This document shows positions 1,643 to 44,857 of a stretch of 64,000 nt of DNA, in pieces. The notes beneath the pieces were generated by a model, which was given only the letters and a program-made list of their open reading frames with translations, did not search any database and was not told the DNA's origin. The stretch comes from Escherichia phage AV116. The stretch is taken from sequence record OR352946.1, one strand, 5' to 3'. The translations under genes and the position numbers were made by a program. The number at the start of each line of letters is the position of its first letter. Position 1 is the first letter of the stretch.

Positions 1643-1650
1643 GATAGCAA

Positions 1651-1899: not shown

Positions 1900-2015
1900 T
1901 TTAAATTCTCAATTCGAGATAATATTTAGTAGCCACGTTCGTCTGAATTTCACCTTCTTTCGACAAGTCTCTCAGTTGTAGGCTACCGCTTAGAAGAGTG
2001 TTCTCTTCATATAGT

Positions 2016-2023
2016 TATTTATA
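2016..2023 (-). promoter_or_regulatory. late promoter TATAAATA (minus strand) upstream of rIII
   Basis: Exact TATAAATA on the minus strand. Confidence 0.5.
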
Positions 2024-2356: not shown

Positions 2357-2413
2357 CTTATTTCCTTGTTGTTTGACGATAGATTAATAATACCATACTA
2401 TTCGTAAAGCATA

Positions 2414-4698: not shown

Positions 4699-4974
4699 TT
4701 AAATTGCAAAACATTTAATTTCTTGTGAATCGAAATCAACTTCACACTGAATTACTAGATCAGCATCAAGTCCAAACACAACAATCACATGAGCCGAGCT
4801 GGGCAACAACGTAACAGACACAGAATCCACTTGGTCAGGCACTAGTGTATTCAAAACGTAGAGTAGTTCAGAGTGGACCTTAAGCTCAGTAGCCGTATCC
4901 AGCTTATCAAAGAAATGATTTGCGATAATCTGACTAAAAACTACCTTTACAATTTCAGAATATTTAGGGAACAT
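4699..4974 (-). CDS. hypothetical protein
   Basis: 91-aa ORF. Confidence 0.4.
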   Translation of the reverse strand: MFPKYSEIVKVVFSQIIANHFFDKLDTATELKVHSELLYVLNTLVPDQVDSVSVTLLPSSAHVIVVFGLDADLVIQCEVDFDSQEIKCFAI

Positions 4975-4981
4975 AATTACC

Positions 4982-5206
4982 TCAGTGCACAGTATTTACT
5001 TTAACTCGAACAACAAATCGCTCGGTCGGTTCACCTACAGGAACAAACTCTACATGATATTCGCCTTTGTATCGAGTATTCAGGTCATTACGAATTCCCG
5101 CGAGTTTGTTGATTAATGTAGGACTCATATTAAGTCCAACTAGTTTACGAAGCATTTTGTATGCTTCATCTTCGATTTCATGATGTTTATCGTACATAGT
5201 TTTCAT
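4982..5206 (-). CDS. hypothetical protein
   Basis: 74-aa ORF. Confidence 0.4.
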   Translation of the reverse strand: MKTMYDKHHEIEDEAYKMLRKLVGLNMSPTLINKLAGIRNDLNTRYKGEYHVEFVPVGEPTERFVVRVKVNTVH

Positions 5207-5377
5207 TTAACCATTCAATTGCCTGGTCGACATTATCAAATATACCACCGTCCAAACGTTCTTCACGCTCATAGTCCATCACATCAATACCGAACTGTCC
5301 ATTTACTAAAGGCCAGGCTACAAACAAATATTCTTTATGATGTTCGATGGCCTCAATCACTTCATATAATCGTTTCA

Positions 5378-5378
<1 letters not shown>
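5187..5378 (-). CDS. hypothetical protein
   Basis: 63-aa ORF abutting pseT. Confidence 0.4.
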
Positions 5379-6464
<1,086 letters not shown>

Positions 6465-7327: not shown

Positions 7328-7680
7328 TCTGAGAGCTTCCTGAGGTCTTCTGCAAAGGAATCGAAGGACCTGTTGATTTGTTTTTCGACCAATCCTGGCT
7401 TACTTGCCACCACGTTCTTCTTCTTCGAATCCTTACGGAGCTTTTCATTTTCGGCCTTAAGTTGGTCAACTAAAACACGGTTCTTATAAGTCATTTCTTC
7501 GATTGACTGATATTGAACCTTGAAGTCGTCTAATACTTTAGCATTGTTTTTAGCAGCCTCTTTGACAGAAGCTAATTCAGTATTCAACGAATCAACTTTG
7601 TTGTTTAAGACAACTATTGTTACAGTAGAAACTAGAGCAAAAGCGGCTACTATAGCGTAAATCGGATTTACTTTAAGCAT
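7324..7680 (-). CDS. hypothetical membrane-anchored coiled-coil protein
   Basis: 118 aa; N-terminal hydrophobic helix followed by K/E-rich heptad-like sequence. Confidence 0.4.
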   Translation of the reverse strand: MLKVNPIYAIVAAFALVSTVTIVVLNNKVDSLNTELASVKEAAKNNAKVLDDFKVQYQSIEEMTYKNRVLVDQLKAENEKLRKDSKKKNVVASKPGLVEKQINRSFDSFAEDLRKLSE

Positions 7681-27883: not shown

Positions 27884-30800
27884 ATGGCTACTTTAAAACA
27901 AATACAATTTAAAAGAAGCAAAACCGCAGGTGCACGTCCTGCTGCTTCAGTATTAGCCGAAGGTGAATTGGCTATAAACTTAAAAGATAGAACACTTTTT
28001 ACTAAAGATGATTCAGGAAATATCATTGATTTAAGCATTTCTGCTGGTGGTAATATCAGTGGAAACGTGACTATTGATGGAACTTTACGCGTCAATGGAC
28101 CAATAAACAATTTTGGAAATTTTTCCACAAGTGGCCAGATTACCGCTGGTAGTAGTATTTCAGCTCAAGTTTTTAGAGCATTGCAAGGTTCGTTTTATTC
28201 AAGAGCTTCAACCGGTGAAACAGCAAATGCCCATTTATGGTTTGAAAATGCCGATGGCACTGAACGAGGCGTTATATATGCTCGTCCTCAAACTACAACT
28301 GATGGTGAAATACGTCTTAGAGTTAGACAAGGAACAGGAAGCACCGTTAATAGCGAATTCTATTTCCGTTCTATAAACGGCGGTGAATTTCAAGCCAACC
28401 GTATTTTAGCATCAGATTCGTTAGTAACTAAACGCATTGCAGCTGATACAGTTATCCACGGTGGCAAAGCCTTTGGTGTATATGATACAGATTCATTAGT
28501 TAATTATGTATATCCAGGCACCGGCGAAACGAATGGTGTAAACTATCTTCGTAAAGTGCGAGCTAAATCCGGTGGTACAATGTATCATGAAATTGTTACT
28601 GCACAAACAGACCAGGCTGATGAAGTTTCTTGGTGGACTGGTAATACACCATCATTTAAATTATATGGTATTCGTAATGACGGCCGAATGATCGTCCGCA
28701 ATAGCATAGCCATCGGGACCGTGACTGCAGGATACCCGTCAAGCGACTATGGTAATGGTGCCGCTTTAGGATTCGGTGTTTATTTAGCTCTAGGCGATAA
28801 CGGGACGGGGCTATCATACAAAAAAACCGGTGTTTATGATTTAGTTGGTTCAGGGAATTCTGTCGCATCTATTACTCCTGATAGTTTCCGTAGTACCCGT
28901 AAAGCGATTTTTGGTCGTTCCGAGGACCAAGGTACAACATGGATTATGCCTGGAACCAACGCCGCATTTTTATCAGTTCAAACACAGGCTGATGAAAATA
29001 CTGCTGGAGACGGCCAGACGCATATTGGATATAATTCTGGCGGGAAAATGTCCCACTATTTCCGCGGTAAAGGCCAAACCAACATTAATACACAAGAAGG
29101 TATGGAAGTTAACCCTGGTATTTTGAAATTGGTAACTGGTTCTAATAACGTACAGTTTTATGCCGACGGAACAGTATCTTCAATACAAAGAATTAAATTT
29201 GATAACGGATTAGTTCTTACTGGTGCTAGACCCGACGGTATTCAACTTGACGCTCCTACAACAACAGATGGCACTAAAACTATACTGTGGGCCGGTGGTA
29301 CTCGCGAAGGTCAGAATAAAAATTATGTATCTATCAAAGCATGGGGTAATGCCTTTAACGCATCTGGTGATCGTTCCCGTGAAACAGTTTTTGAGGTAGG
29401 TGATGGCCAAGGTTATTATTTTTATGCGCAGCGTGTAGCTCCTGCAACAGGTTCGACTATCGGGTCAATTCAACTCCGTATTGGAGGCGCTTTATTAACT
29501 TCTGGTGGTATTACATCGTCTGGTTCTATTGTTACAGAATCTAGCCTGGTTGCAAATAACGGAATGTCTGTAAACGGCCAGGCTAAATTTGGCGGAACAG
29601 CAAATGCATTGAGAATTTGGAACGCCGAATATGGCGCTATTTTCCGTCGTTCAGAAACAGCATTGCACATTATTCCTACTCTTAAAGACCAAGGAGAAAA
29701 TGGTGAAATAGGTAATCTTCGTCCATTGAGCATCTCACTTCATAACGGTATGGTTCAAATGCGTCATTCTGTCACGTTAGGCGATGATGGTGCCGGCGGT
29801 AATATGATTACTGTAGACAACGATAACAAACTTGTTGTTGTTACTAGTAATAGTCGAATTTCTCCTAATTTCAGAATGCAGATAGGTCGGTCGGCATACA
29901 TTGATGCAGAATGTACTGATAGAGTACGGCCGGCTGGAGCGGGTTCTTTTGCTTCCCAAAATAATGAAAATGTACGTGCGCCGTTCTATATGAATATTGA
30001 TAGAACTGATATTAGTACATATGTTCCTATTTTTAAACAACGTTATGTTCAAGGAAATAGCTGTTATTCTTTAGGAACTCTAATTAATGGTGGTAACTTT
30101 AGAGTTCATTATCATGAAGGTGGTGATAATGATTCGACGGGCCCTTTAATTAAGAACTTCGCGTGGGAATTCAATAGAACAGGCGATTTTATTTCCCCTG
30201 GTAAATTGGGAGCTGGTACAGTTCGTATTGGTACTGATGGTAATATCACCGGTGGTTCTGGCAACTTTGCTAACTTGAATACCACAATAAATAACCTTAA
30301 GACGGATATTGTCTCAAGTTATCCTATTGGTGCTCCGATTCCTTGGCCTACTGATACACCTCCTGAAGGTTATGCCATCATGGAAGGTCAAACATTTGAT
30401 AAGTCTGCATACCCAAAATTGGCTATGGCTTACCCATCCGGCGTAATTCCTGATATGCGTGGTCAAACTATCAAGGGTAAACCATCTGGGCGTGCTGTAT
30501 TAAGTACAGAAGCAGATGGTGTTAAGTCACATAGCCATAGTGCAAGTGCATCAAGCACAGATTTGGGTACTAAAAACACATCAAGTTTTGATTATGGTAC
30601 TAAAACCTCTTCAAGCTTTGATTATGGTACGAAGACCAGTAATACCACTGGTGCTCATACGCATAGTTTGAGCGGTTCCACAAACACCACCGGTGCGCAT
30701 ACCCACTCAATGCAATTTGTTTCAGGTGGAACCAGCGGTACTCCAGGAAGTGGATCACCTGACTATTCTAAATACAATGCCAACACTTCTTCTGCGGGCG

Positions 30801-31015
30801 CTCATTCGCACTCTATATCTGGTACTGCTGCAAGCGCAGGCGCTCACGCACATACTGTCGGTATTGGTGCCCATACACATACTGTAGGTATAGGTGCTCA
30901 CACTCATACTGTAGCGATTGGTTCTCACGGACATACTATCACTGTAAATAATACAGGTAATACAGAAAACACGGTTAAAAACATTGCTTTTAACTATATC
31001 GTTCGTTTAGCATAA
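27884..31015 (+). CDS. 37: long tail fibre distal subunit / receptor-recognising tip gp37
   Basis: 1043 aa; C-terminal His-x-His boxes ([28 protein letters not shown]) and terminal ...[11 protein letters not shown] as in T4 gp37. Confidence 0.85.
30560..30960 (+). repeat. in-frame tandem repeats in the gp37 tip region (SFDYGTKT repeat and His-x-His boxes)
   Basis: Near-identical 24-nt unit repeated (TCAAGTTTTGATTATGGTACTAAAAC...), followed by reiterated GGTGCxCAxACxCA units encoding GAHTHT. Confidence 0.7.
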
Positions 31016-31020
31016 GGAGA

Positions 31021-31041
31021 AGGGACTTCGGTCCCTTTTTA
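31021..31041 (+). terminator. intrinsic terminator downstream of gene 37
   Basis: AGGGACTTCGGTCCCT hairpin followed by TTTTT. Confidence 0.7.
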
Positions 31042-31045
31042 TAAT

Positions 31046-31597
31046 ATGAAACTCTATCATTATTATTTTGACACTAAAGAATTTTACAAAGAAGAAAATT
31101 ATAAACCATTAAAAGGCGTAGGATTTCCGGCTCATTCAACACCAAAAAAACCTTTAGACCCTAAAGAAGGTTACGCTGTTGTATTTGACGAACGTGAACA
31201 AGAATGGGTATATATTGAAGACCATCGTGGAAAAACAGTATGGACTTATGATAAGCAAAAAATTGTTATTGACACTCCAGGTGCTCTTCAAAATGTTACT
31301 ACAGAAGAACCTGGTGAATTTGACATTTGGACCGACGACGGGTGGAAGGAAGATGAAGCGTATAAGCGGGTAGTTCAACGTGATAAGAAAATTCATGAAC
31401 TCTATAAATTATTCAGTGTTTTAAGTTCTCTTATTGATGCAGAGGTTGCTAATAGAGAAGAAAAACGAAAATTTAAAGAGCTCAAAAAATTCTTTGCCCT
31501 TTTAGAAAAACATGAACATCTTGGTGGTGAATTCCCTAAATTCCCTGACCTTGAAAACAAATCTATTTTCAAAGCGATTATAAATATCTTTAAGTAA
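31046..31597 (+). CDS. 38: tail fibre assembly chaperone gp38 (T4 type)
   Basis: 183 aa; MKLYHYYFDTKEFYKEENYKP... close match to recalled T4 gp38. Confidence 0.8.
   Translation: MKLYHYYFDTKEFYKEENYKPLKGVGFPAHSTPKKPLDPKEGYAVVFDEREQEWVYIEDHRGKTVWTYDKQKIVIDTPGALQNVTTEEPGEFDIWTDDGWKEDEAYKRVVQRDKKIHELYKLFSVLSSLIDAEVANREEKRKFKELKKFFALLEKHEHLGGEFPKFPDLENKSIFKAIINIFK
31579..31586 (+). promoter_or_regulatory. late promoter TATAAATA for holin gene t
   Basis: Exact TATAAATA about 20 nt upstream of the t ATG, inside the 3' end of gene 38. Confidence 0.6.
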
Positions 31598-35219: not shown

Positions 35220-36545
35220 TCAAAGTGCCTCCAAGTCTTTAGTGTACTCTGTCACAACATCAGTAGACTTCCAATACTCATTTTCTTCTTTCTTAGCTTT
35301 AGCTTCTTCTGCTAGTTTACGTGCTTCATCGGAAGTGATATGGAAGATGTTAAGACCTACCAGTTTATCGACATGTTCTTTATACATTTCGATTTGTGCG
35401 AGCTCTTCAGTCAAAGCTTTACGAGTCTTGCCCTGAATCACAATTTCGCCGTTGATAACTTTTTTGATGAAGTGTGCCTTAGCAAAAGCCAGTTTAAATG
35501 CTTTTTCAGATTCAAGGATTTTGTTGTCAATACGTTTCTGAACGTAAGTCTTACGGACTTCAACAAAATCTTTGATTAAGTCCACTACGTTATCGTAGAC
35601 AGCTAATTTACCCTTTTCATTAATCACTGTGATGTTTTGTGAACGACGTTCGATGAGACTAAAATCTTTCATGATTTTTTCATGACGTAGCTCTTCATCA
35701 TCAGGAAGCGAGTACTCTTTACGGAACTTCACCTTAAACCCAAAGCCGTGTTCACCGCAATCATCTTCCCATGAGATTAGACCTTTGTCTTCCAACGGGT
35801 CAAGAACCTTACTCACATACGTTTCACGGTCGAATTTATATGGGATTTCAGTTATCTGCATTTGAGTGCGAGATGTGAACTTATATGTTCCGTGAATCTC
35901 ATAGCGCCCATCAACTTCATGTACTTCACCACGGAATTCCGGGAATTCAACTTTTGGCTTAGTGACATTTTTACCTTGAAGAGCTTGTAATACAGCCTTT
36001 TTGACTGATTTAAAACTATGAGGCAGAATATTTGTTGCGTAACCGGTTGCAATACCAGAGACGCCATTCAAAAGAACTGTCGGAATAATAGGAAGATAGA
36101 ATTTTGGTGGAATGTGTTCTTTATCTTCATGAGCTGGAGCATATTCAGTATCTTTATATACGTTATAGAAATTTTTACTTACACGAGCAAAAATATAACG
36201 AGATGCTGCAGCTTTTTGGACTGTTCTAGAACCAAAGTTGCCTTGGCCATCTAACAGTGGATAGTTGTTGTTCCATGTGTTAGCCATTAATGCACCTGCA
36301 TCTTGTGCAGAAGATTCACCATGGTGATAACCTAAATCTGCAACACCGCCTGCAATTGACGCAAGTTTATGAAATTTTTCTTTATTACCACGAGCCAAAT
36401 CTAACGCACGATGAACCACAAAACGTTGAACCGGCTTAAATCCATCAATCATGTTTGGGATTGCACGGTTTTCAACGGTGTACATAGCATATGCTAAGGC
36501 TTCGTTATCAATAATACTTTTTAGATTACGAGAATTCAATTGCAT
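35220..36545 (-). CDS. 52: DNA topoisomerase II medium subunit gp52
   Basis: 441 aa; GyrA-like active-site region (ASRYIFARVS); close match to recalled T4 gp52. Confidence 0.9.
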   Translation of the reverse strand: MQLNSRNLKSIIDNEALAYAMYTVENRAIPNMIDGFKPVQRFVVHRALDLARGNKEKFHKLASIAGGVADLGYHHGESSAQDAGALMANTWNNNYPLLDGQGNFGSRTVQKAAASRYIFARVSKNFYNVYKDTEYAPAHEDKEHIPPKFYLPIIPTVLLNGVSGIATGYATNILPHSFKSVKKAVLQALQGKNVTKPKVEFPEFRGEVHEVDGRYEIHGTYKFTSRTQMQITEIPYKFDRETYVSKVLDPLEDKGLISWEDDCGEHGFGFKVKFRKEYSLPDDEELRHEKIMKDFSLIERRSQNITVINEKGKLAVYDNVVDLIKDFVEVRKTYVQKRIDNKILESEKAFKLAFAKAHFIKKVINGEIVIQGKTRKALTEELAQIEMYKEHVDKLVGLNIFHITSDEARKLAEEAKAKKEENEYWKSTDVVTEYTKDLEAL

Positions 36546-36549
36546 ATTT

Positions 36550-36690
36550 TCACCATATTAATGAACGAATAACCATTATAACATCTGAAATGAAAAGCAC
36601 TACTTTGATTAGTCCAAACATCACACCGTAGTACAGAACCGTAAGCAACAACAAGAGCCCTAAGGCTCCTGCTAAGATTTTCTTAATCAT
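36550..36690 (-). CDS. small hydrophobic membrane protein (ac/52.1-like position)
   Basis: 46 codons, not in the supplied track (below its length cutoff); MIKKILAGALGLLLLLTVLYYGVMFGLIKVV...; TAATG overlap with upstream ORF. Confidence 0.35.
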   Translation of the reverse strand: MIKKILAGALGLLLLLTVLYYGVMFGLIKVVLFISDVIMVIRSLIW

Positions 36691-36834
36691 TACTCGCCTT
36701 TTAATACGTTAAGAAGAGCTAAGACCGCTAAGGTACCTTGTGATACGGCCTGTTGAAATACTGTTGTTTCGCCTGTAACTAAAGTGTTAACGAATAAAAA
36801 CGACCAACACAACAATGCAATAATCCATGCTACC
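36690..36834 (-). CDS. small hydrophobic membrane protein (ac/52.1-like position)
   Basis: 48 codons MVAWIIALLCWSFLFVNTLVTGETTVFQQAVSQGTLAVLALLNVLKGE; not in the supplied track. Confidence 0.35.
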
Positions 36835-36888
36835 ATTTTAATTACCTCAAAAATAAATTAAAGGCCCAACTTAATAGGCCTGTATAAA

Positions 36889-37335
36889 TTAGTAACTCTG
36901 CAGAATGAATTTGAAATTATCTGCCAGAAGACGGTTCATTTCAGTGAGTGTTTGATATTCTGATGTATGGTTGCGAGTGAATGCCAGAGCCAATTGTCCT
37001 TTACCATAACCAGTAGTCAGTGGTTTCATGTTCTTAGCTGCAACAAAGATTACATCATATTCAATATTGTTAGTGCCCATGGTACGGGCTAGTTGTGAAC
37101 GGCCTTGACGAATGTGAGAAAGAATTGCATCCAACCCTTGTTTAGAACGTTGACGTCCTACAAAGAATCGTGCTGCTACTTGTCGCCAATCAGATGAACC
37201 TTTAACAAAGAAGTAAAAACCTTCACGAGAACGAAACTCTTTAGAAACTTCAGAACCGTATTCACCATTACGAACTACTGCAACAACTTCACCGCCAACG
37301 GCCAGAAGGTCTTTACGAGTTAAATATTTGGACAT
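36889..37335 (-). CDS. ndd: nucleoid disruption protein Ndd
   Basis: 148 aa; ...[32 protein letters not shown]...[38 protein letters not shown] matches recalled T4 Ndd. Confidence 0.8.
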
Positions 37336-37377
37336 GCTAATTTCCTCAATTGATTAATGTTTTTGTAATCCATGAGA

Positions 37378-37409
37378 GCATTATACTCTGCTCTCAAGAG
37401 TTTGTACAA
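37378..37409 (-). promoter_or_regulatory. T4-type early promoter (upstream of ndd)
   Basis: TTGTACAAACTCTTGAGAGCAGAGTATAATGC on the minus strand. Confidence 0.5.
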
Positions 37410-37411
37410 TT

Positions 37412-37612
37412 TTATTCGGTTATATCAGAACGTTCAAAAAGCTCTTCAACAGTTAAACATTCAGTGTCATCTTCAATAAAGAATCGAGTCCAACACGTTG
37501 GGGCGATGCAGTTGTGAGTTTGTCCGGCTATAGAAGCTACACGAATAAGTTGCTGACCATTATTCAGGACAAATTTTTCACCAATTTCAACATCTTTAAA
37601 AAGCTTAGCCAT
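37412..37612 (-). CDS. hypothetical protein (ndd.x)
   Basis: 66-aa ORF with early promoter at 37639..37670. Confidence 0.45.
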   Translation of the reverse strand: MAKLFKDVEIGEKFVLNNGQQLIRVASIAGQTHNCIAPTCWTRFFIEDDTECLTVEELFERSDITE

Positions 37613-37638
37613 TTTGTGTTCCTCATGTTTCAGTAGGA

Positions 37639-37670
37639 CTACTATACCATAATCCTACCGTGATGTAAAC
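37639..37670 (-). promoter_or_regulatory. T4-type early promoter
   Basis: GTTTACATCACGGTAGGATTATGGTATAGTAG on the minus strand. Confidence 0.5.
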
Positions 37671-37862
37671 AATTAAATTACATTAAAATATGTTAAAGCC
37701 AACCATGTTCCAGTGAACGAACATGCAATGTAAAAACCAGTATCACAAATTGTTCTTAGTACAATAAGAAGTGCATTTTTCATAAGTACCTCAATGCAAT
37801 TGAAAATATTATACAAATCATAGGGATACTAAGCAACCATATTCCGATCCACATTTTAGAGC

Positions 37863-38126
37863 TCATATCTCAACTTCCGCGAGTTCCATATATCCTTTGT
37901 TGATAACCTCTTTAAGGTCTTTAGAAAGAATAACACCAAAATGGTCGTTCATATGTCCATTAACTAAACGAGTTATTTCGGCTTCAGATGACATATAAGG
38001 CACGTCTGAGTCCCAATGAGATAGTCCCAAATGGGTATAAATCATCCCTTCGTCATCTGCAGTGTTGTACATTGAAACAAATTCGCCTGTTACTTTATGT
38101 TTTGCGTAGAAAAATTTAAATTTCAT
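37863..38126 (-). CDS. hypothetical protein (ndd.x)
   Basis: 87-aa ORF with early promoter at 38148..38182. Confidence 0.45.
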   Translation of the reverse strand: MKFKFFYAKHKVTGEFVSMYNTADDEGMIYTHLGLSHWDSDVPYMSSEAEITRLVNGHMNDHFGVILSKDLKEVINKGYMELAEVEI

Positions 38127-38147
38127 GATGTTATCCTCTTTTAGATA

Positions 38148-38182
38148 GGACTACTATATCATAGTCCTACTTAGTTGTAAAC
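38148..38182 (-). promoter_or_regulatory. T4-type early promoter
   Basis: GTTTACAACTAAGTAGGACTATGATATAGTAGTCC on the minus strand. Confidence 0.5.
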
Positions 38183-38194
38183 ACTTTTATGAAA

Positions 38195-38815
38195 TTAAAG
38201 ATGAAGATACCACCCGTTGTAGTTGCTCTTGCGGACGATTTTCTTTAGGTCTTCATGGTCTCCCACGAACTTTATAGAATAAGAGAAGACGTCAGGTGAG
38301 GTTTCTTTGACATCTAATATAATAATGCAATCTGCGACTCGATGGTTCAAGAAGGGCCCTATATTGATTCCATTACCACCAGGATAATCACCACTGTATC
38401 CTGTGGTAACCGAAATCCATTTAGAATCTATCTGGTGCGTCTTGACTTCGACACGCAACCCGCAGTATTTAGGATGAGCTAACACGTCCCATGCATACGT
38501 GTACGGGTCTTCTACGTCTTCATTACCTTTATTAACATATCCGTCTAGCCAATTTGCTACTACATACTCTGCAAAGACTGCAACCTTACAACGTCGAACA
38601 ACGTCTTCTTTTATTTGACCTGGATCTTGTTTCAACGAGTACCGAGCAGTGTCAGCAATCTTCACCTTCATTTCACTAGTCAAAAACTCATTCGACAGGA
38701 TAAATGTCGGAAGATTCTTCAGCCTCAACAGCCCCAAGTTCGTCTTTACCATAGATACCTCTGATGTGTAGTTCGCCAAAATAAATGCGGTCACCTTCTT
38801 CAAGATATTCTGCAT
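38195..38815 (-). CDS. hypothetical protein; possibly the distal part of a disrupted rII-region gene (rIIB C-terminal part or denB)
   Basis: 206-aa ORF in a third frame directly downstream of the rIIA-like fragment; in-frame TAG immediately before its ATG. Confidence 0.4.
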   Translation of the reverse strand: MQNILKKVTAFILANYTSEVSMVKTNLGLLRLKNLPTFILSNEFLTSEMKVKIADTARYSLKQDPGQIKEDVVRRCKVAVFAEYVVANWLDGYVNKGNEDVEDPYTYAWDVLAHPKYCGLRVEVKTHQIDSKWISVTTGYSGDYPGGNGINIGPFLNHRVADCIIILDVKETSPDVFSYSIKFVGDHEDLKKIVRKSNYNGWYLHL

Positions 38816-38832
38816 CTACAGGCGGAATTTCA

Positions 38833-39642
38833 TTAACAACTTCGTCGCATTCTAACCAGCCGTAGTGTGCATCGCGTCATCATCCATGTTTGTTCTTTAA
38901 TAACACTTCCGATTGGATATACAATACCACCATAAACAGCCATGATATTACCACGTTCACCCCATGGAGCTTCCTTGGCCAAATATACATCGTCAAATTC
39001 TGGGAAGTATTTAATATCTTTAACACCACGAACTTCTGCAATATCACCTAGAGGACGCATAACATAAGCAATTTCGGATGCGAACTTTTCAAAATCTTCT
39101 GGGTTAACAGGCACAACTACTTCAACGCCGGTCCGGTCATCAGGACCCATCTTATCTACGAAGGTTGGCTTAATCTGTGGACCCGTGTCATCTTGGTAGA
39201 TTACGTAACCACGAACTTCACCGTTGTGATAAGACGTAAGGTTAAACGTATCGGTATATGCTAATGGAGCTTTAGAGCCGAGTCCGAATCCACCAATGAA
39301 ATCGTTACTCGATGTTTTAGTTGAAGCAAAATATGAGTTATAGATTCCTGGCTCTTCGTCATTACCTCGAATGGTGAAATCACTCATACCAGGACCAAAG
39401 TCTCGAACTACAAAACGTGGGTCTAAACGACCTGGAGCCTGAACAATAAACTTATCAGTGCAACCATTAAGAATTTGTCCATCGATACAGTTTGTGATTA
39501 ATTCACGTACACAAGCCAATTCTTTGTTTGTATAAAGGTCATTAGACAAAATCTTATAAACTTTGCTATTGCCTTGAATAGTAAATGCTGTGCTCTTACC
39601 GCCTGAACCAATAATCGTTTCTTTAGCCGTTTCGATAATCAT
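38833..39642 (-). pseudogene. rIIA: rIIA-like protein, N-terminal GHKL-ATPase region only (premature stop / frame change)
   Basis: Bergerat-fold motifs [27 protein letters not shown]; ORF stops after 269 codons and protein-like sequence continues in the +1 frame (38691..38876). Confidence 0.5.
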
Positions 39643-39654
39643 GTTTTTCTCTCA

Positions 39655-39885
39655 TCACAAGTTACGTTTAAAAATTTCTGCCACTTCGAGAAGTTCTTCT
39701 TTAGTAGCTGTGTCGGTTTGTATTTTATATCGAATTTCCTTAAAGCGTTCTTTAAAGGCTTCAGCTGATTCGATATCAAAAAATCTTTGGATAAGCCGGA
39801 ATTCCCGGAGCACTGCTTTATCAAAAAGTTCCAAGTCCACGTTATATGTTCTCATAATATTCTCTTCAGTAGATTCCTGAGGCAC
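39655..39885 (-). CDS. hypothetical protein (rIIA.1 position)
   Basis: 76-aa ORF immediately upstream of the rIIA-like ORF. Confidence 0.4.
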   Translation of the reverse strand: MPQESTEENIMRTYNVDLELFDKAVLREFRLIQRFFDIESAEAFKERFKEIRYKIQTDTATKEELLEVAEIFKRNL

Positions 39886-39947
39886 TATTACTAAAGACCA
39901 TATAATCTATCATCTTATGTGTAATAGTGCCTCAGGCGATTCAGGAT

Positions 39948-41048
39948 TTACGCTGTGAAGATTTTATCCCACATCGCAACAACTGCATCTCGATTATACT
40001 TCTTCCATACTGCTTCAGCACGTTTAACTCGAGCTTCGTATGTGTCAGTGAATTCTAATACAGCTTTTGTGTAAAGCGCAACTACTTCTTTCTTAGGAGT
40101 AGAGGAATCAATTTCTACACGCACAGTATCTGGGTCGTATTCGAATGTCGCATGAGGATAATCCTTAAAAACTAACTGGATTACAGGGACACCTTTAGAG
40201 ATGGCTTCAATAGAACTATTCTCTACCGTACCTGTGTCAGGACACGTATTAATAAGTGCTTTAGCTGTTTTAAGACGTTCCATGATTTCACTATGTGGAG
40301 CATCAATAATAACAGGATACTTAGCCGGTGGTGCCCATTTACTAGGACAGTATCCTGCACCATTTTCGCCTAGTGCTTTAATCGCTTCAAGAGCAACATC
40401 AGTGCGACGCATTTTAGTGTCATAACGTTGGGCACTAATAATCAAATCAGTTGCTGGGAGAACTTCTGGCTTTTCGGTCAAACAAATAACCGGGTAGTCA
40501 TCATGTTCAAATAATGGATTTTCACGCCAGTAATCATAATCAATGCTATCAGTAAGAGCTGAAGTCATATGGCAATATTTACGTTCAAATTCACGGAATG
40601 CTTTAGTAGGAGCATAGCTCTTACCACCGTATTTGTGGGTAAGAATAGTTTGTTTCCAAATTTCTACAATACCGCGAGATACAGGCTCAAATGGAGTTGC
40701 CATAAAATTTCTATGAACACTGGATAAACCGGCATCTTTAATTGCGTTAACAGTTAGTTTAGTCGGTTCCATAGTAACAACAAAATCGTATTCATGGATG
40801 CCGGCTAGTTCAACAATCTTACGAGCCATAGTATAACTCATACCTAGACTGAATTTAGTCAGATGACCAACAGGATGATGATTAACTTTCCAGTCACCAA
40901 ACGTGTCATTATCAAAGCCGATATAATCAATATCAGCACCGATGGACACAAGATATTTCAACACATTTAAATGTACTGCTTCAAGGCCACCTTGTACACG
41001 GTCAGGATTAAATGGGACTGCACGAGATGGGATAAACATAACTTTCAT
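39948..41048 (-). CDS. putative GT-B fold glycosyltransferase
   Basis: 366 aa; C-terminal ENSSIEAISKGVPVIQ resembles the GT-B E-x(n)-E/A-x-x-G-x-PV donor-binding motif; no counterpart at this position in T4. Confidence 0.5.
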   Translation of the reverse strand: MKVMFIPSRAVPFNPDRVQGGLEAVHLNVLKYLVSIGADIDYIGFDNDTFGDWKVNHHPVGHLTKFSLGMSYTMARKIVELAGIHEYDFVVTMEPTKLTVNAIKDAGLSSVHRNFMATPFEPVSRGIVEIWKQTILTHKYGGKSYAPTKAFREFERKYCHMTSALTDSIDYDYWRENPLFEHDDYPVICLTEKPEVLPATDLIISAQRYDTKMRRTDVALEAIKALGENGAGYCPSKWAPPAKYPVIIDAPHSEIMERLKTAKALINTCPDTGTVENSSIEAISKGVPVIQLVFKDYPHATFEYDPDTVRVEIDSSTPKKEVVALYTKAVLEFTDTYEARVKRAEAVWKKYNRDAVVAMWDKIFTA

Positions 41049-41059
41049 AATTAAGCCTT

Positions 41060-41092
41060 ATTAAAATTAAAATGAAGCTCCCGAAGGAGCTT
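41060..41092 (-). terminator. intrinsic terminator downstream of HNH endonuclease gene
   Basis: AAGCTCCTTCGGGAGCTT hairpin followed by U-rich tract on the minus strand. Confidence 0.55.
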
Positions 41093-41888
41093 AGGACATC
41101 CAACACATTTTATAACCTTTGCAGGTTCTGTTAGGATTATTTAATGCTTTCAATATATTAGAAGACCCTATATCTAAATACTCCCTTAATTCATAAAGAT
41201 AGTTAAAATCAATAGTTTCACCTGTTTTTACACTTGTGATTCTTATAGGCCTTCTTTCATATTTAGATTTATACAACTCTCTAGTCTTAGCTTTAGTTTC
41301 TTCTGACCTAGGAGTGTATGGTTTAAATCCTTTTGTTTTAAATGTTTCCATTCTTGATTTAGTTATTTTATCCTGGTGTTCTTTTGTTTTTACAGGTGCT
41401 TTTCGCCCATTCTCCCAAGATAACTTGTTGGCCTGTATTATTTTATCTATTGCTTCTTGCGTATGAGTTTTACCATAAAATGGATTTAATTCGCCTATAC
41501 GTTGTGAAGCAATATGTGACATTAATTCTCTTGTTGCTTTAGTATGTTTTTTACCTTTAAATGGATTGCCATTTTTAGCAATCCATTCTTTCATAAATCT
41601 AGAGTGCTCTTTAGAGAATTCTTGTTTAAGCCAATCATAATCTCTAGAATTTCTAGCTCCCATGTAAAAAGCTCTAATAGCCATAAGCATAGAACGGTTC
41701 TTATGAATTTTATAAAGCAATAAATGGGCGATAAAATGCTCTCTAGGGGTCATTTTAACTAGATTTGATTTAGCATTACTCCCACCCATAGATTTAGGCA
41801 AAATATGGTGAGTTTCAGTATAATTAGGAATAGTGCTGCGGTTTTTAGCCGCAGCGATAAGTTTATCATAAATTTTACGATAATTCAT
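41091..41888 (-). CDS. HNH homing endonuclease (MobA-like); start taken at MNYRKIY, TAATG-coupled to gene 39 stop
   Basis: THHILPKSMGG...N...REHFIAH HNH motif; paralogue of ORF 13933..14568. Confidence 0.7.
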   Translation of the reverse strand: MNYRKIYDKLIAAAKNRSTIPNYTETHHILPKSMGGSNAKSNLVKMTPREHFIAHLLLYKIHKNRSMLMAIRAFYMGARNSRDYDWLKQEFSKEHSRFMKEWIAKNGNPFKGKKHTKATRELMSHIASQRIGELNPFYGKTHTQEAIDKIIQANKLSWENGRKAPVKTKEHQDKITKSRMETFKTKGFKPYTPRSEETKAKTRELYKSKYERRPIRITSVKTGETIDFNYLYELREYLDIGSSNILKALNNPNRTCKGYKMCWMS

Positions 41889-43711
41889 TATCCTAGCATC
41901 CAATCTTTACGGAGTTCAGGGTCGTTACCCATGAGCATTTCAAATAGTTCTTTCCAATTTTCAGGAAGTTTAACTACGTCGTACACAGGGTTTTGAATCA
42001 TTTCTTTATATTCATCCCGCTGAAGTGAGCCCAATCCCTTGATGTATCGAATACTATGCTTAGGCAGTGTATCTTTAACTTCTTCATACTCAGCTACAGT
42101 ATAAAACCATTTTTGAGTTTTGCCAATTTGTGCAATAATTACAGGCGTTTTAACAAAGCGAATACGTCCTTGTTCAAACAATTCAGGCCAATTACTAAAG
42201 AAAGCAAGCAAAGCCGGATAAATACTTCCAAGGCCGTCATGATCGGCATCGGTCATAATTGCAATATTACGGTAGTTCGTATTCTCTGCCTTTTCACCAA
42301 GAATAAGACCCGTGATAGCACAGATATCAAAGAGCTCTTTGTTCTTCATCATATCGGCATATGACATACCCCAGCTATTCATCACCTTACCACGTAATGG
42401 GAATCCGCCGTGTAGTTCACGGTCACGAACATCAATGAGATAACCAATTGCCGAATCACCTTCTGTTAAAAACAATGTCGTATCTGCATCTTTACCACAT
42501 TGGTTAGCTTTAATATGCTTATGAACCTTAGCTTTAGTTGCCTTTTTAGCTGCTTTAGTTTCTGCAGCCTTTTCTGCTGCCAATTTACGAGCTAATGCGG
42601 CTTCAATTATAGGCATTAAAACTGCGTCAGAATTCAAAATATTTTTTGCCAATTTTTTTGTATCTAATTTAATATGCGTCCGAATTTCGCCATAAGGACT
42701 TGTTAAACGCTCTTTGGTTTGGGAATCAAAACGAAGGTTCTTCATTCCACGAACGAACATTAAGAGAGTGAGACATTCCTTGATTCGCGCTTTAGTCACG
42801 TCGATTTTATATTTGCGTTTAATAGCCGGAATTAATTCTTCGCTAATGTCGTCCATCACACATTCAATGTGATGACCACCGTTTTTGGTATGGATGTTAT
42901 TCACATAAGTTAAATGACGGAAGCCATCTGGTGACCGTCCAATGGCAATAGAGCATCCGTCTTGTTCTTGAATGATGGTCTCTTCATCAAATTGTTTAGC
43001 AAACTTCTTAAAGTTACCTTGAATCTTTTTGCCATTAAATTTAAATTCAATACCAGGATAAACGACCGCCAATGTTTGGAGCCGGTCTATAGTAATATCT
43101 TGGTATATTTTTTCAAATTGATTCATTTCAAAATGTGAGAAATCAGGAATAAACTCGACCTTAGTACCGTTGTTTTTAGACGGCTTAGATTTCCAAGAAA
43201 TATTATCAGCGTTATTAGAACAATTAACGGTCAATTCATTTTTACCATCTGAAGTAGTGCCAACAAAAGAGACAGAAAAAATATTTGTTAATGAAGAACC
43301 GACACCGTTTTGTCCACCCGTAACACGTTCTTTGTCGTCACCAAAGTTGCCACCGGCTTTTGTACGTGTCCACGCCGCAACTGGTCCTGGAATTTCTTCT
43401 CCTTCAGGAGTAATAACTGTTTCTTGAGGAATACCTCGACCATTATCTTCAACAGTCACTTTATTAGAATTTAAATCAATACTAACGGAAATTTTATTAG
43501 CATATTTGAAATTGGTTCGAATAGCTTCGTCTACTGAGTTGTCAATAATTTCATCAATTAATTTGAGAACACCTGCAACATATTTAACCTTTTTAAATTC
43601 ACCGAATAGGAAACGTTCTTGTTCTTCATTGGCAACACTTCCAATATACATGCCAGGACGCTTCAAACAATGCTCTTTATCAGATAGCATTTCAATTTTA
43701 TTATCAATCAT
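41888..43711 (-). CDS. 39: DNA topoisomerase II large subunit gp39, unsplit (includes the region encoded by T4 gene 60)
   Basis: GHKL ATPase motifs (LIDEIIDNSVDE, DNGRGIP) plus C-terminal TOPRIM region IMTDADHDGLGSIYPALLAFFSNWPELFEQGRIRFVKTP matching recalled T4 gp60. Confidence 0.85.
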   Translation of the reverse strand: MIDNKIEMLSDKEHCLKRPGMYIGSVANEEQERFLFGEFKKVKYVAGVLKLIDEIIDNSVDEAIRTNFKYANKISVSIDLNSNKVTVEDNGRGIPQETVITPEGEEIPGPVAAWTRTKAGGNFGDDKERVTGGQNGVGSSLTNIFSVSFVGTTSDGKNELTVNCSNNADNISWKSKPSKNNGTKVEFIPDFSHFEMNQFEKIYQDITIDRLQTLAVVYPGIEFKFNGKKIQGNFKKFAKQFDEETIIQEQDGCSIAIGRSPDGFRHLTYVNNIHTKNGGHHIECVMDDISEELIPAIKRKYKIDVTKARIKECLTLLMFVRGMKNLRFDSQTKERLTSPYGEIRTHIKLDTKKLAKNILNSDAVLMPIIEAALARKLAAEKAAETKAAKKATKAKVHKHIKANQCGKDADTTLFLTEGDSAIGYLIDVRDRELHGGFPLRGKVMNSWGMSYADMMKNKELFDICAITGLILGEKAENTNYRNIAIMTDADHDGLGSIYPALLAFFSNWPELFEQGRIRFVKTPVIIAQIGKTQKWFYTVAEYEEVKDTLPKHSIRYIKGLGSLQRDEYKEMIQNPVYDVVKLPENWKELFEMLMGNDPELRKDWMLG

Positions 43712-44387
43712 TAGATTTTCTCTCAAATTGCATGACTATATTTTTGTATGAACCTTCCGGAAATCCACGTTTAATGCTTTCTTTAGCAAATTTCCCAACC
43801 TTTGGTTTATCCAATTCTAACCATAATTTATATAAAGCAGATTCATATTCCCATACAGGACTTTTACGATTTTTAAGCCCACACTTTATAAGCGCTTCCT
43901 TTGTATGTTTCTTATTATAAAATGGATTGTTTTTGCCACTCATTGCTTTAGAATGTTCCGGGCGCTTAATTCCATACATCGGATTAAGATCGCCTTTCTT
44001 GATAACGGATTGTAGTTCAATAGTTTCTTCAGAGTGATTGTGTCCATAAAATGGATTTAACTCTTTTGAAACATCCATACCAAAGCACCCATCGACTGTG
44101 GCATAAGACATGTTGAAAAATTTTTCAGATTTAACCACATTATGCAATTTCTGGTAATACAACTCACAAAACGTCGCTTCTTCCCGTGTATCAAATTCGC
44201 CAATAATACATGAATCAAATAAATGAGGATTATCTTTTATCTCTTTATCATAAATTTGTTTATATTTTTTCGACTTTACCGTACCATGATAGTGATTGTT
44301 TGTATGTTTATCAAGATAAGTAGACCCTATATAAAACGGTGGCAACTTATCGCCTGTGTATATTGTTAAGTATGTTATGTATTTCAT
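43704..44387 (-). CDS. GIY-YIG homing endonuclease (Seg-like)
   Basis: 227 aa; YITYLTIYTGDKLPPFYIGST motif and three NPFYG/NPMYG repeats typical of Seg/I-TevI DNA-binding modules; overlaps gene 39 start. Confidence 0.65.
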   Translation of the reverse strand: MKYITYLTIYTGDKLPPFYIGSTYLDKHTNNHYHGTVKSKKYKQIYDKEIKDNPHLFDSCIIGEFDTREEATFCELYYQKLHNVVKSEKFFNMSYATVDGCFGMDVSKELNPFYGHNHSEETIELQSVIKKGDLNPMYGIKRPEHSKAMSGKNNPFYNKKHTKEALIKCGLKNRKSPVWEYESALYKLWLELDKPKVGKFAKESIKRGFPEGSYKNIVMQFERKSND

Positions 44388-44416
44388 AAAGGTATTCTAT
44401 CATCCGAAATCTAAAG

Positions 44417-44435
44417 CAAAAAGGGCCGAAGCCCT
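44417..44435 (-). terminator. intrinsic terminator
   Basis: AGGGCTTCGGCCCT hairpin followed by UUUUU on the minus strand. Confidence 0.6.
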
Positions 44436-44857
44436 TATTTAAATTTAATTTTCTGAAGTGCATCAATTGCAGCCAAACGCCCTTGTTCACTTTTAACTGT
44501 AACGACCACATCGCCTGATACGATCACCGAACCATCAACAAATTCTATAGAGCCTTTTTTGAAATCGACAGCTGTATCTGGTTCCGGAACTTCTTCAAAG
44601 AATTTAAATTCTGCACCATAAAGCAGAATATCACCTTGCATACTAATGATTGTACGTCCAGGTCCATCGGTTTCAGCGGCAATAATCGAAACGCCGTAAC
44701 CAATCATCTCTTCCACAATAAAATCTTTGGACAATAAAGTAGTATGCAGATTAGTATTAAGACGTTTACCAGTCGTATTAAGAATTCTCAAGAAATTATC
44801 TTCCTGTCCTTTGATAATACGATATTTCTTACCAACTTCAAAACCTTTAAAAGCCAT
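44435..44857 (-). CDS. hypothetical protein
   Basis: 140-aa ORF followed by terminator hairpin 44422..44435. Confidence 0.45.
   Translation of the reverse strand: MAFKGFEVGKKYRIIKGQEDNFLRILNTTGKRLNTNLHTTLLSKDFIVEEMIGYGVSIIAAETDGPGRTIISMQGDILLYGAEFKFFEEVPEPDTAVDFKKGSIEFVDGSVIVSGDVVVTVKSEQGRLAAIDALQKIKFK

What the first reader, a model, noticed from the sequence alone, without database searches (positions are those of the whole stretch)
38195..39642. rIIA-like gene stops after its GHKL ATPase domain, with two successive +1 frame switches; rIIB-sized coding capacity is missing
ORF 38833..39642 has clear Bergerat-fold motifs as expected for the rIIA N-terminus but ends after 269 codons. Protein-like sequence continues in the +1 frame (open from 38876 to 38691, 62 codons) and then in the third frame (206-aa ORF 38195..38815). 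The whole interval between rIIA.1 and ndd is about 2.3 kb, far less than the roughly 3.1 kb needed for T4-sized rIIA plus rIIB, with no room for denB. This looks like a deletion or frameshift scar in the classic rII locus, or a sequencing error in a real gene.
Basis: partly seen in the sequence, partly recalled or inferred. Interest (0 to 1): 0.7.

Follow-up and report, generated by a model that had tools for sequence, protein, structure and literature searches.

The report
Natural rII deletion in phage AV116
This RB69-like coliphage has lost about 2.5 kb of the classic rII locus (two thirds of rIIA, all of rIIB and the start of a small neighbouring gene) through a deletion between two 9-base repeats, so it is a naturally isolated rII-null phage and not a frameshifted or mis-sequenced gene.

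Summary
The window is Escherichia phage AV116, a Mosigvirus from Danish pig waste. It runs collinear with RB69 and with its near-twin AV114, apart from one clean gap. That gap is 2,524 bp against AV114 and 2,533 bp against RB69. Its ends are two copies of GCGATGCAC, and one copy remains at 38867..38875.

The deletion removes rIIA codons 260-737, all of rIIB and the first 34 codons of a DUF7418 gene (RB69ORF272c). The surviving rIIA' ORF (38833..39642) encodes 259 native residues plus 10 out-of-frame residues. The native part is a complete GHKL/Hsp90-like ATPase domain.

The "+1 frame" stretch is the startless 61-codon remnant of the DUF7418 gene. The 206-aa ORF is intact DenB, whose true start is 38752 (185 aa). 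So denB is present, and the second "frame switch" is a normal gene boundary.

Phage FL18 (Danish piglet faeces, about 95% identical) has the identical junction on a different flanking haplotype. This means either one allele spread by recombination or a recurrent hotspot. About 150 other Mosigvirus genomes keep full-length rIIA.

I predict growth on Rex-free hosts and exclusion by lambda RexAB. It is an ordinary kind of lesion in an unusual, natural setting.

The parts
39655..39885 (-). rIIA.1, intact, immediately upstream of rIIA'
   Evidence: Pfam T4_RIIA1 E 6e-30. Same position as rIIA.1 in RB69 and AV114.
38833..39642 (-). rIIA' truncated ORF, 269 codons plus TAA. Residues 1-259 are identical in kind to native RIIA; residues 260-269 ([10 protein letters not shown]) are out-of-frame DUF7418-gene sequence.
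   Evidence: An identical 269-aa protein is recorded as WPK35523.1 'rIIA lysis inhibitor [Escherichia phage AV116]'.
38875..39642 (-). Native part of rIIA', a complete GHKL (Bergerat-fold, Hsp90-like) ATPase domain
   Evidence: Motif conservation. Pfam HATPase_c_3 on homologue P0003, 38.6 bits against a cutoff of 25. AF2 pLDDT 86.5. Foldseek hits to GRP94, TRAP1, Hsp90 and Topo VI-B, E 4.5e-11 to 1e-9, 200-245 aligned columns.
38867..38875 (-). Deletion junction: the single retained copy of the 9-bp direct repeat GCGATGCAC (coding strand)
   Evidence: The two BLAST segments against RB69 and against AV114 overlap by exactly these 9 bases. Base-by-base view. Every other Mosigvirus record breaks at the same 9-bp overlap.
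38688..38873 (-). Remnant of the DUF7418 gene (RB69ORF272c homologue): codons 35-95 plus stop. It has no start codon, and two in-frame TGA codons lie just upstream.
   Evidence: tblastn residues 35-95, 98% identity. Translation. Pfam DUF7418 and phrog_2237 on the intact homologue.
38195..38752 (-). denB (endonuclease IV), intact, 185 aa. The mechanical ORF extends to 38815.
   Evidence: phrog_1360 E 1.2e-88 aligns residues 22-205 of the 206-aa ORF to profile positions 1-188. AGAGG lies 5 nt before the ATG at 38752 (sequence). FL18 annotates the 185-aa form.
38833..38833 (.). The only substitution between AV116 and AV114 in 37880..39356. It turns TAT into the TAA stop of rIIA', and is I to N in the DUF7418 frame.
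   Evidence: SNP table. FL18, RB69, AV114 and ChristianSchoenbein all carry the other base.
36889..37335 (-). ndd, intact; the downstream landmark of the interval
   Evidence: Pfam Phage_T4_Ndd E 4.3e-89.

Best explanation
This is a genuine deletion in the rII locus of a natural RB69-like phage, Escherichia phage AV116. It is 2,524 bp measured against AV114 and 2,533 bp against RB69.

Shown. The endpoints are two copies of the 9-bp direct repeat GCGATGCAC, one in rIIA codons 256-259 and one in codons 34-37 of the DUF7418 gene downstream of rIIB. One copy is retained and no foreign DNA is inserted. This is the signature of microhomology-mediated deletion (replication slippage, template switching or single-strand annealing). 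The deletion removes RIIA residues 260-737, the rIIA-rIIB spacer, all of rIIB, and the promoter-proximal 100 nt of the DUF7418 gene. Its length is 3n+1, so rIIA' reads 10 further codons in the wrong frame and stops. The DUF7418 remnant has no start codon. denB and everything downstream are untouched.

Inferred. The phage is rII-null. It should plate normally on Rex-free hosts, as it did at isolation. It should be excluded by lambda RexAB, and it should escape defences that sense RIIB. A free-standing GHKL ATPase fragment of RIIA is probably still made from the intact rIIA promoter and ribosome-binding site. denB should now be transcribed directly from the rIIA promoters.

Origin. The same junction occurs in phage FL18 on a different flanking haplotype. 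I favour a single deletion allele circulating among Mosigviruses in the Danish pig sector, with its flanks overwritten by recombination with intact phages (about 0.55-0.65). The alternative is independent recurrence at a hotspot (about 0.25-0.3). The confidence value given applies to the structural claim (a real microhomology deletion producing an rII-null genotype), not to the origin sub-claim.
For: Collinearity. Window 36800..38875 matches RB69 164399..166474 at 97.5%, and 38867..41100 matches RB69 1439..3672 at 94.9%. Against AV114, 35000..38875 matches at 98.97% and 38867..44500 at 99.82%, both gapless. AV114 carries rIIA (2214 nt), rIIB (927 nt) and the 288-nt DUF7418 gene between those points.

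Junction at base level, showing the 9-bp overlap.

Identity of the three pieces.

The deleted DNA and proteins are absent from the rest of the window.

Independent genome. FL18 aligns gaplessly over 4,301 bp at 95.35% with the same junction.

Source record. The 269-aa product is deposited as AV116 WPK35523.1.

Rarity. 150 of 155 Mosigvirus records carry full-length rIIA DNA, and only FL18 spans the junction.

Phenotype basis. Knock-down of RIIA or RIIB in the Mosigvirus MM02 does not impair infection of Rex-free E. coli but lowers EOP on RexAB (PMC11879866). T6 rIIB-null mutants escape a RIIB-triggered gasdermin/CARD system and become RexAB-sensitive (bioRxiv 10.1101/2023.05.28.542683).
Against: I could not inspect reads, so a mixed stock cannot be excluded. 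Nor can I rule out a deletion that arose during plaque purification.

Only 64 kb of the 167.8-kb genome was available, so an rIIB copy elsewhere in the genome is not formally excluded.

No phenotype data exist. Neither source paper mentions rII.

On origin, AV116 is identical to AV114 from 37880 to 39356 apart from the deletion and one SNP. FL18's flanks match other intact phages: G2469 on the rIIA side to within 12 bp of the junction, and ChristianSchoenbein on the other side to within about 45 bp. Read at face value, this pattern suggests two recent independent deletions.

The junction 29-mer and 22-mer were not found in IMG/VR or in JGI metagenome contigs.
Confidence: 0.9

Rival explanations
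1. Recurrent hotspot. The same 9-bp repeat pair recombined independently in the AV116 lineage and in the FL18 lineage. In each case rII loss was then fixed by selection, for example by hosts with RIIB-sensing defences, or by plaque picking.
For: AV116's flanks are AV114-identical for about 1 kb on one side and 0.5 kb on the other, right up to the junction. FL18's flanks match different intact phages up to 12 bp and about 45 bp from the junction. The shared core without haplotype-informative differences is at most 60 bp. The repeat is conserved in all 158 other records. Each carrier has one private substitution 21-34 bp beyond the junction on the same side, which could be a trace of error-prone synthesis after a template switch. 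Other rII deletion alleles exist in RB69-like assemblies.
Against: The 9-mer is not exceptional. There are at least 60 direct-repeat families of 9 nt or more in the same 4.4 kb, including exact 10-mers, so chance reuse of the same pair is unlikely. Frameshift and nonsense mutations are the usual route to rII loss: 6 of 6 T6 escapers, and the homopolymer contingency site in T4 rIIA. Both carriers come from one country, one animal sector and one laboratory, while about 140 genomes from elsewhere lack the deletion. A universal sequence hotspot does not explain that pattern.
Confidence: 0.28
2. Laboratory artefact of propagation. An r-type deletion mutant overgrew or was picked during the three rounds of plaque purification, so the wild phage in the sample had an intact rII.
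For: Apart from the deletion, AV116 differs from AV114 by one base in 1.48 kb around the site, so the deletion could be very recent. Both carriers were purified in the same laboratory by similar protocols. r mutants are classically enriched by picking large plaques (general knowledge).
Against: Twelve other Mosigviruses from the same laboratory and protocols keep rII: AV109-115, AV117 and AV118, and JM10 and FL31. The two carriers were isolated on different hosts, ESBL188 and MG1655. The same rare deletion arose twice rather than the far commoner point or frameshift r mutations.
Confidence: 0.12
3. Sequencing or assembly error: a full-length rIIA-rIIB is really present and indels or mis-assembly broke the frames.
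For: None beyond the frame changes themselves. Reads could not be examined.
Against: The difference from relatives is a clean absence of 2,524 bp, with no scattered indels. Both flanking alignments are gapless. A 9-bp repeat is far too short to collapse an assembly. The identical junction occurs in an independently sequenced, 5%-divergent genome. The switch near 38690 is a conserved gene boundary in all relatives.
Confidence: 0.02
4. Functional short architecture. The free-standing GHKL ATPase domain of RIIA (259 aa) has been retained because it does something useful on its own, for example as a decoy or a partial counter-defence, and the deletion is a remodelling.
For: The break falls just after a complete, confidently modelled GHKL domain. 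The promoter, RBS and start codon are intact. Two other deletion alleles in public assemblies also keep the RIIA N-terminus, residues 1-294 and 1-166. Many database homologues are 250-380-aa proteins, although most sit on short contigs and may be fragments.
Against: The 166-residue allele cuts inside the domain. Any deletion that preserves transcription into denB must keep the rIIA 5' end, so retention needs no function. The synonymous-biased divergence between the AV116 and FL18 copies is inherited from intact haplotypes and is uninformative. There is no experimental support.
Confidence: 0.06

Closest known systems
Classical T4 rII deletion mutants (r1589, r1272, r638, rH88; region-D deletions NB5060, NB3157, Sa-delta)
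   Same: They are deletions inside or spanning rIIA-rIIB in a T-even phage, viable on non-restrictive hosts and excluded by lambda rex. Endpoints at short direct repeats are the known rule for T4 deletions (general knowledge). The mutants are listed in PMC12115623, and an r1589-like fusion was sequenced in PMC8594841.
   Different: This one is found in environmental isolates of a different genus (Mosigvirus), not in a laboratory mutant hunt. The endpoints are new: rIIA codon 259 to codon 34 of a DUF7418 gene that lies between rIIB and denB. Unlike r1589 it is out of frame and leaves no rIIB. Unlike NB5060 it spares denB and ndd.
T6 rIIB-null escapers of the Lysobacter/Pedobacter gasdermin-CARD defence (bioRxiv 10.1101/2023.05.28.542683)
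   Same: Loss of RIIB function. The predicted trade-off is the same: escape from RIIB-sensing immunity against sensitivity to RexAB.
   Different: Those are laboratory-selected frameshift or nonsense mutations in rIIB only. Here the lesion is a 2.5-kb deletion that also removes two thirds of rIIA, and no selecting defence system has been identified.
Escherichia phage FL18 (PP400780.1) rII locus
   Same: It has an identical junction and the same three pieces (rIIA' of 270 aa, DUF7418 remnant, denB), in a gapless alignment.
   Different: It is about 95% identical overall. Its flanking haplotypes are different, G2469-like and ChristianSchoenbein-like. It has one more tail codon, because it lacks the 38833 substitution. 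It lacks the homing endonuclease next to gene 39.
RIIA(1-294)::RIIB(196-308) in-frame fusion in RB69-like assemblies (protein P0006, Logan)
   Same: It is another microhomology deletion (6-bp GTTGCA, about 1,926 bp) in the same locus of the same phage group, and it keeps the GHKL domain.
   Different: It is in frame and retains the RIIB C-terminus, so it is r1589-like. Its endpoints are different. Its genomic context could not be retrieved.

Membership tests
T4-type rII module (rIIA + rIIB) | Full-length RIIA (about 725-740 aa) | tested here: not met
   The ORF is 269 aa, of which only residues 1-259 are native. The PHROG match covers profile positions 1-257 of 725. AV114 RIIA is 737 aa.
T4-type rII module (rIIA + rIIB) | An rIIB gene immediately downstream of rIIA | tested here: not met
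   tblastn with AV114 RIIB and blastn with the deleted 2,515-bp segment find nothing in the 64-kb window. The rest of the genome was not available.
GHKL / Bergerat-fold ATPases (N-terminal domain of RIIA) | N-box (ExxxNxxD), G1 box (DxGxG) and G2 box (GxxGxG) | tested here: met
   E47/N51/D54, D81-F-G83-P-G85 and G117..G120-L-G122 are invariant or nearly so in 57 homologues.
GHKL / Bergerat-fold ATPases (N-terminal domain of RIIA) | The fold itself | tested here: met
   AF2 model with pLDDT 86.5 and pTM 0.84. Foldseek top 50 are all Hsp90-family or Topo VI-B, probability 1.00, TM about 0.5 on the query. Pfam HATPase_c_3 is above cutoff on homologue P0003. The AV116 sequence itself has no Pfam hit.
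GHKL / Bergerat-fold ATPases (N-terminal domain of RIIA) | ATP binding or hydrolysis | not testable with these tools
   Biochemical property.
DenB (T4 endonuclease IV) | Full-length match to the DenB family at the syntenic position upstream of ndd | tested here: met
   phrog_1360 E 1.2e-88, residues 22-205 on profile positions 1-188 of 203. It is annotated denB / endonuclease IV at the same position in RB69, FL18, AV114 and ChristianSchoenbein.
Microhomology-mediated (short direct repeat) deletion | Both endpoints in the intact relative carry the same short repeat, one copy remains, and there is no filler DNA | tested here: met
   GCGATGCAC is present at both sites in RB69 and AV114, and a single copy remains at 38867..38875 in AV116 and FL18. 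A chance 9-bp overlap has probability of about 4e-6.
r1589-type rIIA-rIIB fusion | In-frame junction joining the RIIA N-terminus to the RIIB C-terminus | tested here: not met
   The deletion length is 3n+1 and rIIB is entirely gone. The fusion type exists in a different assembly, P0006.
Programmed +1 frameshift or split gene | Downstream frame continuous with the same protein family, with an open path between frames | tested here: not met
   The downstream frames belong to DUF7418 and DenB, not RIIA. Two TGA codons close the DUF7418 frame just 5' of the junction. No Rfam element lies in 36000..42000.

The most novel reading that the evidence does not exclude
The deletion is an adaptive allele and not a neutral scar. 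On this reading, a defence-escape rII-null variant is maintained and moved between divergent Mosigvirus backgrounds in the Danish pig reservoir, or is regenerated at a hotspot. The selective agent would be local E. coli carrying RIIB-sensing immunity (gasdermin/CARD-NLR-like or similar) while rarely carrying rexAB. That would be the first field example of the RIIB trigger-versus-RexAB trade-off shaping natural T-even genomes.
Probability: 0.2. Interest if true: 0.6.

Novelty: new member of a known kind. Interest (0 to 1): 0.35.

Why it matters
rII is the textbook conditional-lethal locus. RIIA and RIIB are kept by virtually all T-even coliphages: 150 of 155 Mosigvirus records here carry full-length rIIA DNA.

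Two environmental isolates that lack the module, with the same junction on different haplotypes, show that rII-null phages persist outside the laboratory. They provide a ready-made natural pair, AV116 and AV114, about 99% identical around the locus. That pair could be used to test what rII costs and buys in real hosts, including the recently described RIIB-triggered defences.

There is also a practical point. The AV phages were collected for biocontrol of ESBL E. coli. An rII-null member is predicted to fail on hosts that carry lambda-type rexAB prophages.

Two annotation points follow. The 'rIIA lysis inhibitor' label on the 269-aa product hides a truncated gene. The RB69-style denB start appears to be 27 codons too short.

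Tried and rejected
(1) Frameshift or sequencing error. Rejected: the flanks are gapless and 2.5 kb is missing.

(2) Programmed frameshift or fusion of rIIA' to the next frame. Rejected: the frames belong to different protein families, and two stops close the frame.

(3) Insertion of a mobile element or homing endonuclease splitting rIIA. Rejected: there is no extra DNA at the junction.

(4) Relocation of rIIB within the window. Rejected.

(5) An FL18-like introgression tract in AV116. The only non-AV114 patch to the right of the junction (39357..39484) looked FL18-like. It turned out to be the common Mosigvirus haplotype, with 70 records at 99% or more, so it says nothing about origin.

(6) Repeat length as an explanation for a hotspot. 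Rejected: many equal or longer repeats lie nearby. An imperfect inverted repeat in AV114 (L004 4874-4896 / 7139-7161) lies 86 and 143 nt inside the two endpoints. It is only 78% complementary and is one of 65 such pairs, so I did not pursue it.

(7) Searches for the junction in IMG/VR (29-mer) and JGI metagenome contigs (22-mer). Both gave zero hits.

(8) First structure prediction, from a 3-sequence alignment. It was unusable at pLDDT 36 and was repeated with 57 sequences.

OR352946 is not in the phage collection.

(10) The supplementary table of the FL18 paper is not held.

(11) The divergent tails of cluster members P0011, P0013 and P0014 could not be placed.
Full report
WHAT THE WINDOW IS.
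The region is the gene 39 to gene 52 segment of a T-even phage. Reading on the minus strand, the genes are:
- gp39 (41888..43726)
- an HNH homing endonuclease (41091..41903)
- an RB69ORF003c-like gene (39948..41048)
- rIIA.1 (39655..39885)
- the flagged interval
- small ORFs, then ndd (36889..37335), ac, 52.1 and gp52 (35220..36545).

Megablast places the window in the genus Mosigvirus, the RB69 group. The 269-aa product of the flagged ORF is identical to WPK35523.1, 'rIIA lysis inhibitor [Escherichia phage AV116]', on a 167,816-bp contig. So the window is phage AV116 (OR352946). AV116 was isolated on E. coli ESBL188 from Danish pig waste (PMC10844046). That record is not in the phage collection I could search.

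THE OBSERVATION.
(i) 38833..39642 is the N-terminus of RIIA (phrog_612, E 6.7e-116, residues 1-256 on profile positions 1-257 of 725).
(ii) The '+1' stretch 38873..38691 is residues 35-95 of the homologue of RB69ORF272c, a 95-aa protein of Pfam family DUF7418.
(iii) The 206-aa ORF 38195..38815 is DenB, endonuclease IV (phrog_1360, E 1.2e-88).

The DenB family profile starts at residue 22 of that ORF. This is the ATG at 38752, preceded by AGAGG, and it gives the 185-aa size that FL18 annotates. The second 'frame switch' near 38690 is therefore the ordinary boundary between the DUF7418 gene and denB. It is annotated as two adjacent genes in RB69, AV114 and ChristianSchoenbein, and with the 38752 start the two genes overlap by 65 nt. 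The statement that there is no room for denB is wrong.

THE LESION.
Against RB69:
- window 36800..38875 aligns to 164399..166474 at 97.5%
- window 38867..41100 aligns to 1439..3672 at 94.9%.

Against AV114, from the same Danish collection, the two segments are 98.97% and 99.82% identical and gapless. In both comparisons the two segments overlap by exactly nine bases, 38867..38875, which read GCGATGCAC on the coding strand.

In the intact phages one copy of this 9-mer lies in rIIA, in the sequence ...ATG ATG ACG CGA TGC ACT ACA.... The other lies in the DUF7418 gene, in ...CCT GGC GAT GCA CAC TAC GGC.... AV116 has a single copy and nothing else between them. The missing segment is 2,524 bp relative to AV114, made up of:
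- 1,438 nt of rIIA
- the 9-nt spacer
- rIIB, 927 nt
- a 41-nt spacer
- 100 nt of the DUF7418 gene
- one repeat copy.

Relative to RB69 it is 2,533 bp, because RB69 rIIB is 9 nt longer. The length is 3n+1. So rIIA' runs 259 native residues, then [10 protein letters not shown], then stop. The DUF7418 remnant is preceded by two in-frame TGA codons and has no ATG, GTG or TTG. A 9-bp match at random endpoints has probability of about 4e-6, so this is a microhomology-mediated deletion. No RIIA C-terminus, RIIB or deleted DNA exists elsewhere in the window.

THE REMAINING RIIA FRAGMENT.
- The AV116 sequence itself has no Pfam hit.
- phmmer finds only marginal matches to GRP94, at the N-box and the G2 box.
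- A profile search returns 95 homologues, most of them carrying HATPase_c or HATPase_c_3. One of them passes the Pfam cutoff when rescanned.
- The catalytic-motif residues are invariant.
- An AlphaFold2 model built on 57 sequences has pLDDT 86.5. Its best PDB neighbours are Hsp90-family proteins and Topo VI-B, at E about 1e-10.

The break falls just after this domain. Whether the fragment is stable or active is unknown.

IS IT REAL, AND HOW COMMON IS IT?
A 9-bp repeat cannot collapse an assembly. Escherichia phage FL18 (PP400780.1; piglet faeces, Denmark; isolated on MG1655; PMC12032242) aligns to window 36800..41100 without a single gap at 95.35%, and it has the same junction. Its rIIA' is 270 aa.

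Among 155 Mosigvirus records with rIIA, 150 carry the full 2.2-kb gene in one piece. All 158 other records break at the same 9-bp overlap when queried with the FL18 junction. So the repeat is conserved and the deletion is rare. The junction sequence is absent from IMG/VR and from JGI metagenome contigs. Neither source paper mentions rII.

ONE ORIGIN OR TWO?
AV116 is identical to AV114 from 37880 to 39356, except for the deletion and one substitution at 38833. FL18 differs from AV116 at about 60 sites in 38300..39450. Its rIIA-side flank is the haplotype of G2469 (Germany) up to 12 bp from the junction. Its other flank is the haplotype of ChristianSchoenbein (Basel) up to about 45 bp from it. 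So each carrier has 'normal' local haplotypes right up to the junction, and the shared core is at most 60 bp.

This can be read in two ways.

(a) Two independent deletions at a hotspot. Against this:
- The 9-mer is unremarkable among at least 60 repeat families in the locus.
- Point and frameshift mutations are the usual way to lose rII.
- Both carriers come from the same country, animal sector and laboratory, while about 140 genomes from elsewhere lack the deletion.

(b) One allele whose flanks were overwritten by recombination with intact phages. T-even phages recombine intensely, and short mosaic patches are visible here between AV116 and AV114. Heteroduplex extension must stop at the heterology boundary, so conversion tracts that end exactly at the junction are expected. 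This last step is my inference and is not shown.

I weight (b) at about 0.55-0.65 and (a) at about 0.25-0.3. A purification artefact takes part of the remainder.

One oddity remains. Each carrier has one private substitution (38833 in AV116, 38846 in FL18), and both fall within the 33-nt out-of-frame tail, 21-34 bp past the junction on the same side. Both are non-synonymous in the DUF7418 frame. With n = 2 this may be chance, relaxed constraint, or a trace of error-prone synthesis at a template switch.

OTHER rII DELETIONS IN THE GROUP.
The 90%-identity cluster of the 269-aa protein holds further truncated forms.
- P0006 (407 aa; three Logan contigs, the longest 157,639 bp) is RIIA 1-294 joined in frame to RIIB 196-308 across a 6-bp GTTGCA microhomology. 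That is a deletion of about 1,926 bp, an r1589-like fusion.
- P0009 joins RIIA 1-166 out of frame to rIIB near codon 204.

I could not retrieve their contigs, so whether they are environmental or laboratory-derived is unknown.

LIKELY CONSEQUENCES (INFERRED).
In the Mosigvirus MM02, knock-down of RIIA or RIIB does not affect infection of Rex-free E. coli but lowers plating on RexAB (PMC11879866). None of the wild-type T-even phages tested in the BASEL study (PMC8594841) is RexAB-sensitive, whereas a T4 rIIAB fusion mutant is. AV116 should therefore grow on Rex-free hosts, as it evidently does, and be excluded by lambda-type rexAB.

Conversely, RIIB is the trigger of a gasdermin/CARD defence, and rIIB-null T6 escapes it. 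That is a possible advantage, but no such system has been identified in AV116's hosts.

denB keeps its start codon and Shine-Dalgarno sequence. It now lies 81 nt downstream of the rIIA' stop, so it is presumably transcribed from the rIIA promoters. The internal promoters that lie in the rIIA 3' region in T4 would be gone (general knowledge; not tested).

VERDICT.
This is a real microhomology deletion that makes AV116 a natural rII-null phage. This kind of lesion is classical. The natural occurrence, the identical junction in a second divergent isolate, and the near-isogenic intact partner AV114 give it moderate interest.

Noticed in passing
not in the window; protein P0006 (Logan assemblies), mapped on L004 (AV114) rIIA codon 294 / rIIB codon 196: A different rII deletion allele exists in RB69-like phage assemblies. 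It is an in-frame RIIA(1-294)::RIIB(196-308) fusion across a 6-bp GTTGCA microhomology (about 1,926 bp deleted), reminiscent of T4 r1589. It occurs on three contigs of up to 157,639 bp.
   Followed up: partly
not in the window; protein P0009 (Logan, 6,087-bp contig): A third allele: RIIA residues 1-166 continue into the tail GIFMHGK*. That tail is the rIIB 'DGHFYAWK' region read in another frame, with one mismatch to AV114. This implies an out-of-frame rIIA-rIIB deletion. The tails of P0011, P0013 and P0014 could not be placed.
   Followed up: partly
window 38833 and 38846: The only AV116-private base in 1.48 kb (38833) and an FL18-private base (38846) both fall in the 33-nt out-of-frame tail just past the junction, on the same side. 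Both are non-synonymous in the DUF7418 frame. 38833 creates the TAA that ends rIIA' one codon earlier than in FL18.
   Followed up: partly
window 41091..41903 (-) and 41888..43726 (-): An HNH-type homing endonuclease gene (phrog_655, E 2.9e-56) sits between the ORF003c-like gene and gene 39 and overlaps the gene 39 stop by 16 nt. It is present in AV114 but absent from RB69 and FL18. Gene 39 next to it is only 81% identical to FL18, against 95-98% elsewhere.
   Followed up: partly
window 40400..40799, inside ORF 39948..41048 (-): The RB69ORF003c-like gene (phrog_8302, unknown function) has a 400-bp patch only about 82% identical to FL18, while its flanks are 96-99% identical. This is a locally hypervariable segment.
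   Followed up: no
window 38688..38752; L002 (RB69) 7371..7388: The RB69, AV114 and ChristianSchoenbein records start denB at the third in-frame ATG (158 aa). The family profile, the 185-aa form annotated in FL18 and an AGAGG Shine-Dalgarno support the ATG at 38752. With that start, the denB 5' end overlaps the DUF7418 gene 3' end by 65 nt.
   Followed up: partly
window 28027..31580: Besides the rII deletion, the only large difference between AV116 and AV114 in 57 kb is the distal tail-fibre region. AV116 has a 1,043-aa gp37 plus a 183-aa gp38. The source paper states that AV116 has a T4-type gp37 and chaperone, while AV114 has a T2-type gp38 adhesin.
   Followed up: partly
L004 (AV114) 4874-4896 and 7139-7161: An imperfect inverted repeat (23 nt, 78% complementary) lies 86 and 143 nt inside the two deletion endpoints. 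It could in principle bring the 9-bp repeats together on single-stranded DNA, but it is one of 65 such pairs in the region.
   Followed up: no
L004 (AV114) 4930..5856, RIIB residues 7-50: The RIIB N-terminus gives weak, sub-threshold helix-turn-helix matches (Pfam HTH_23, E 4.4e-05, 23.6 bits against a cutoff of 24.6).
   Followed up: no
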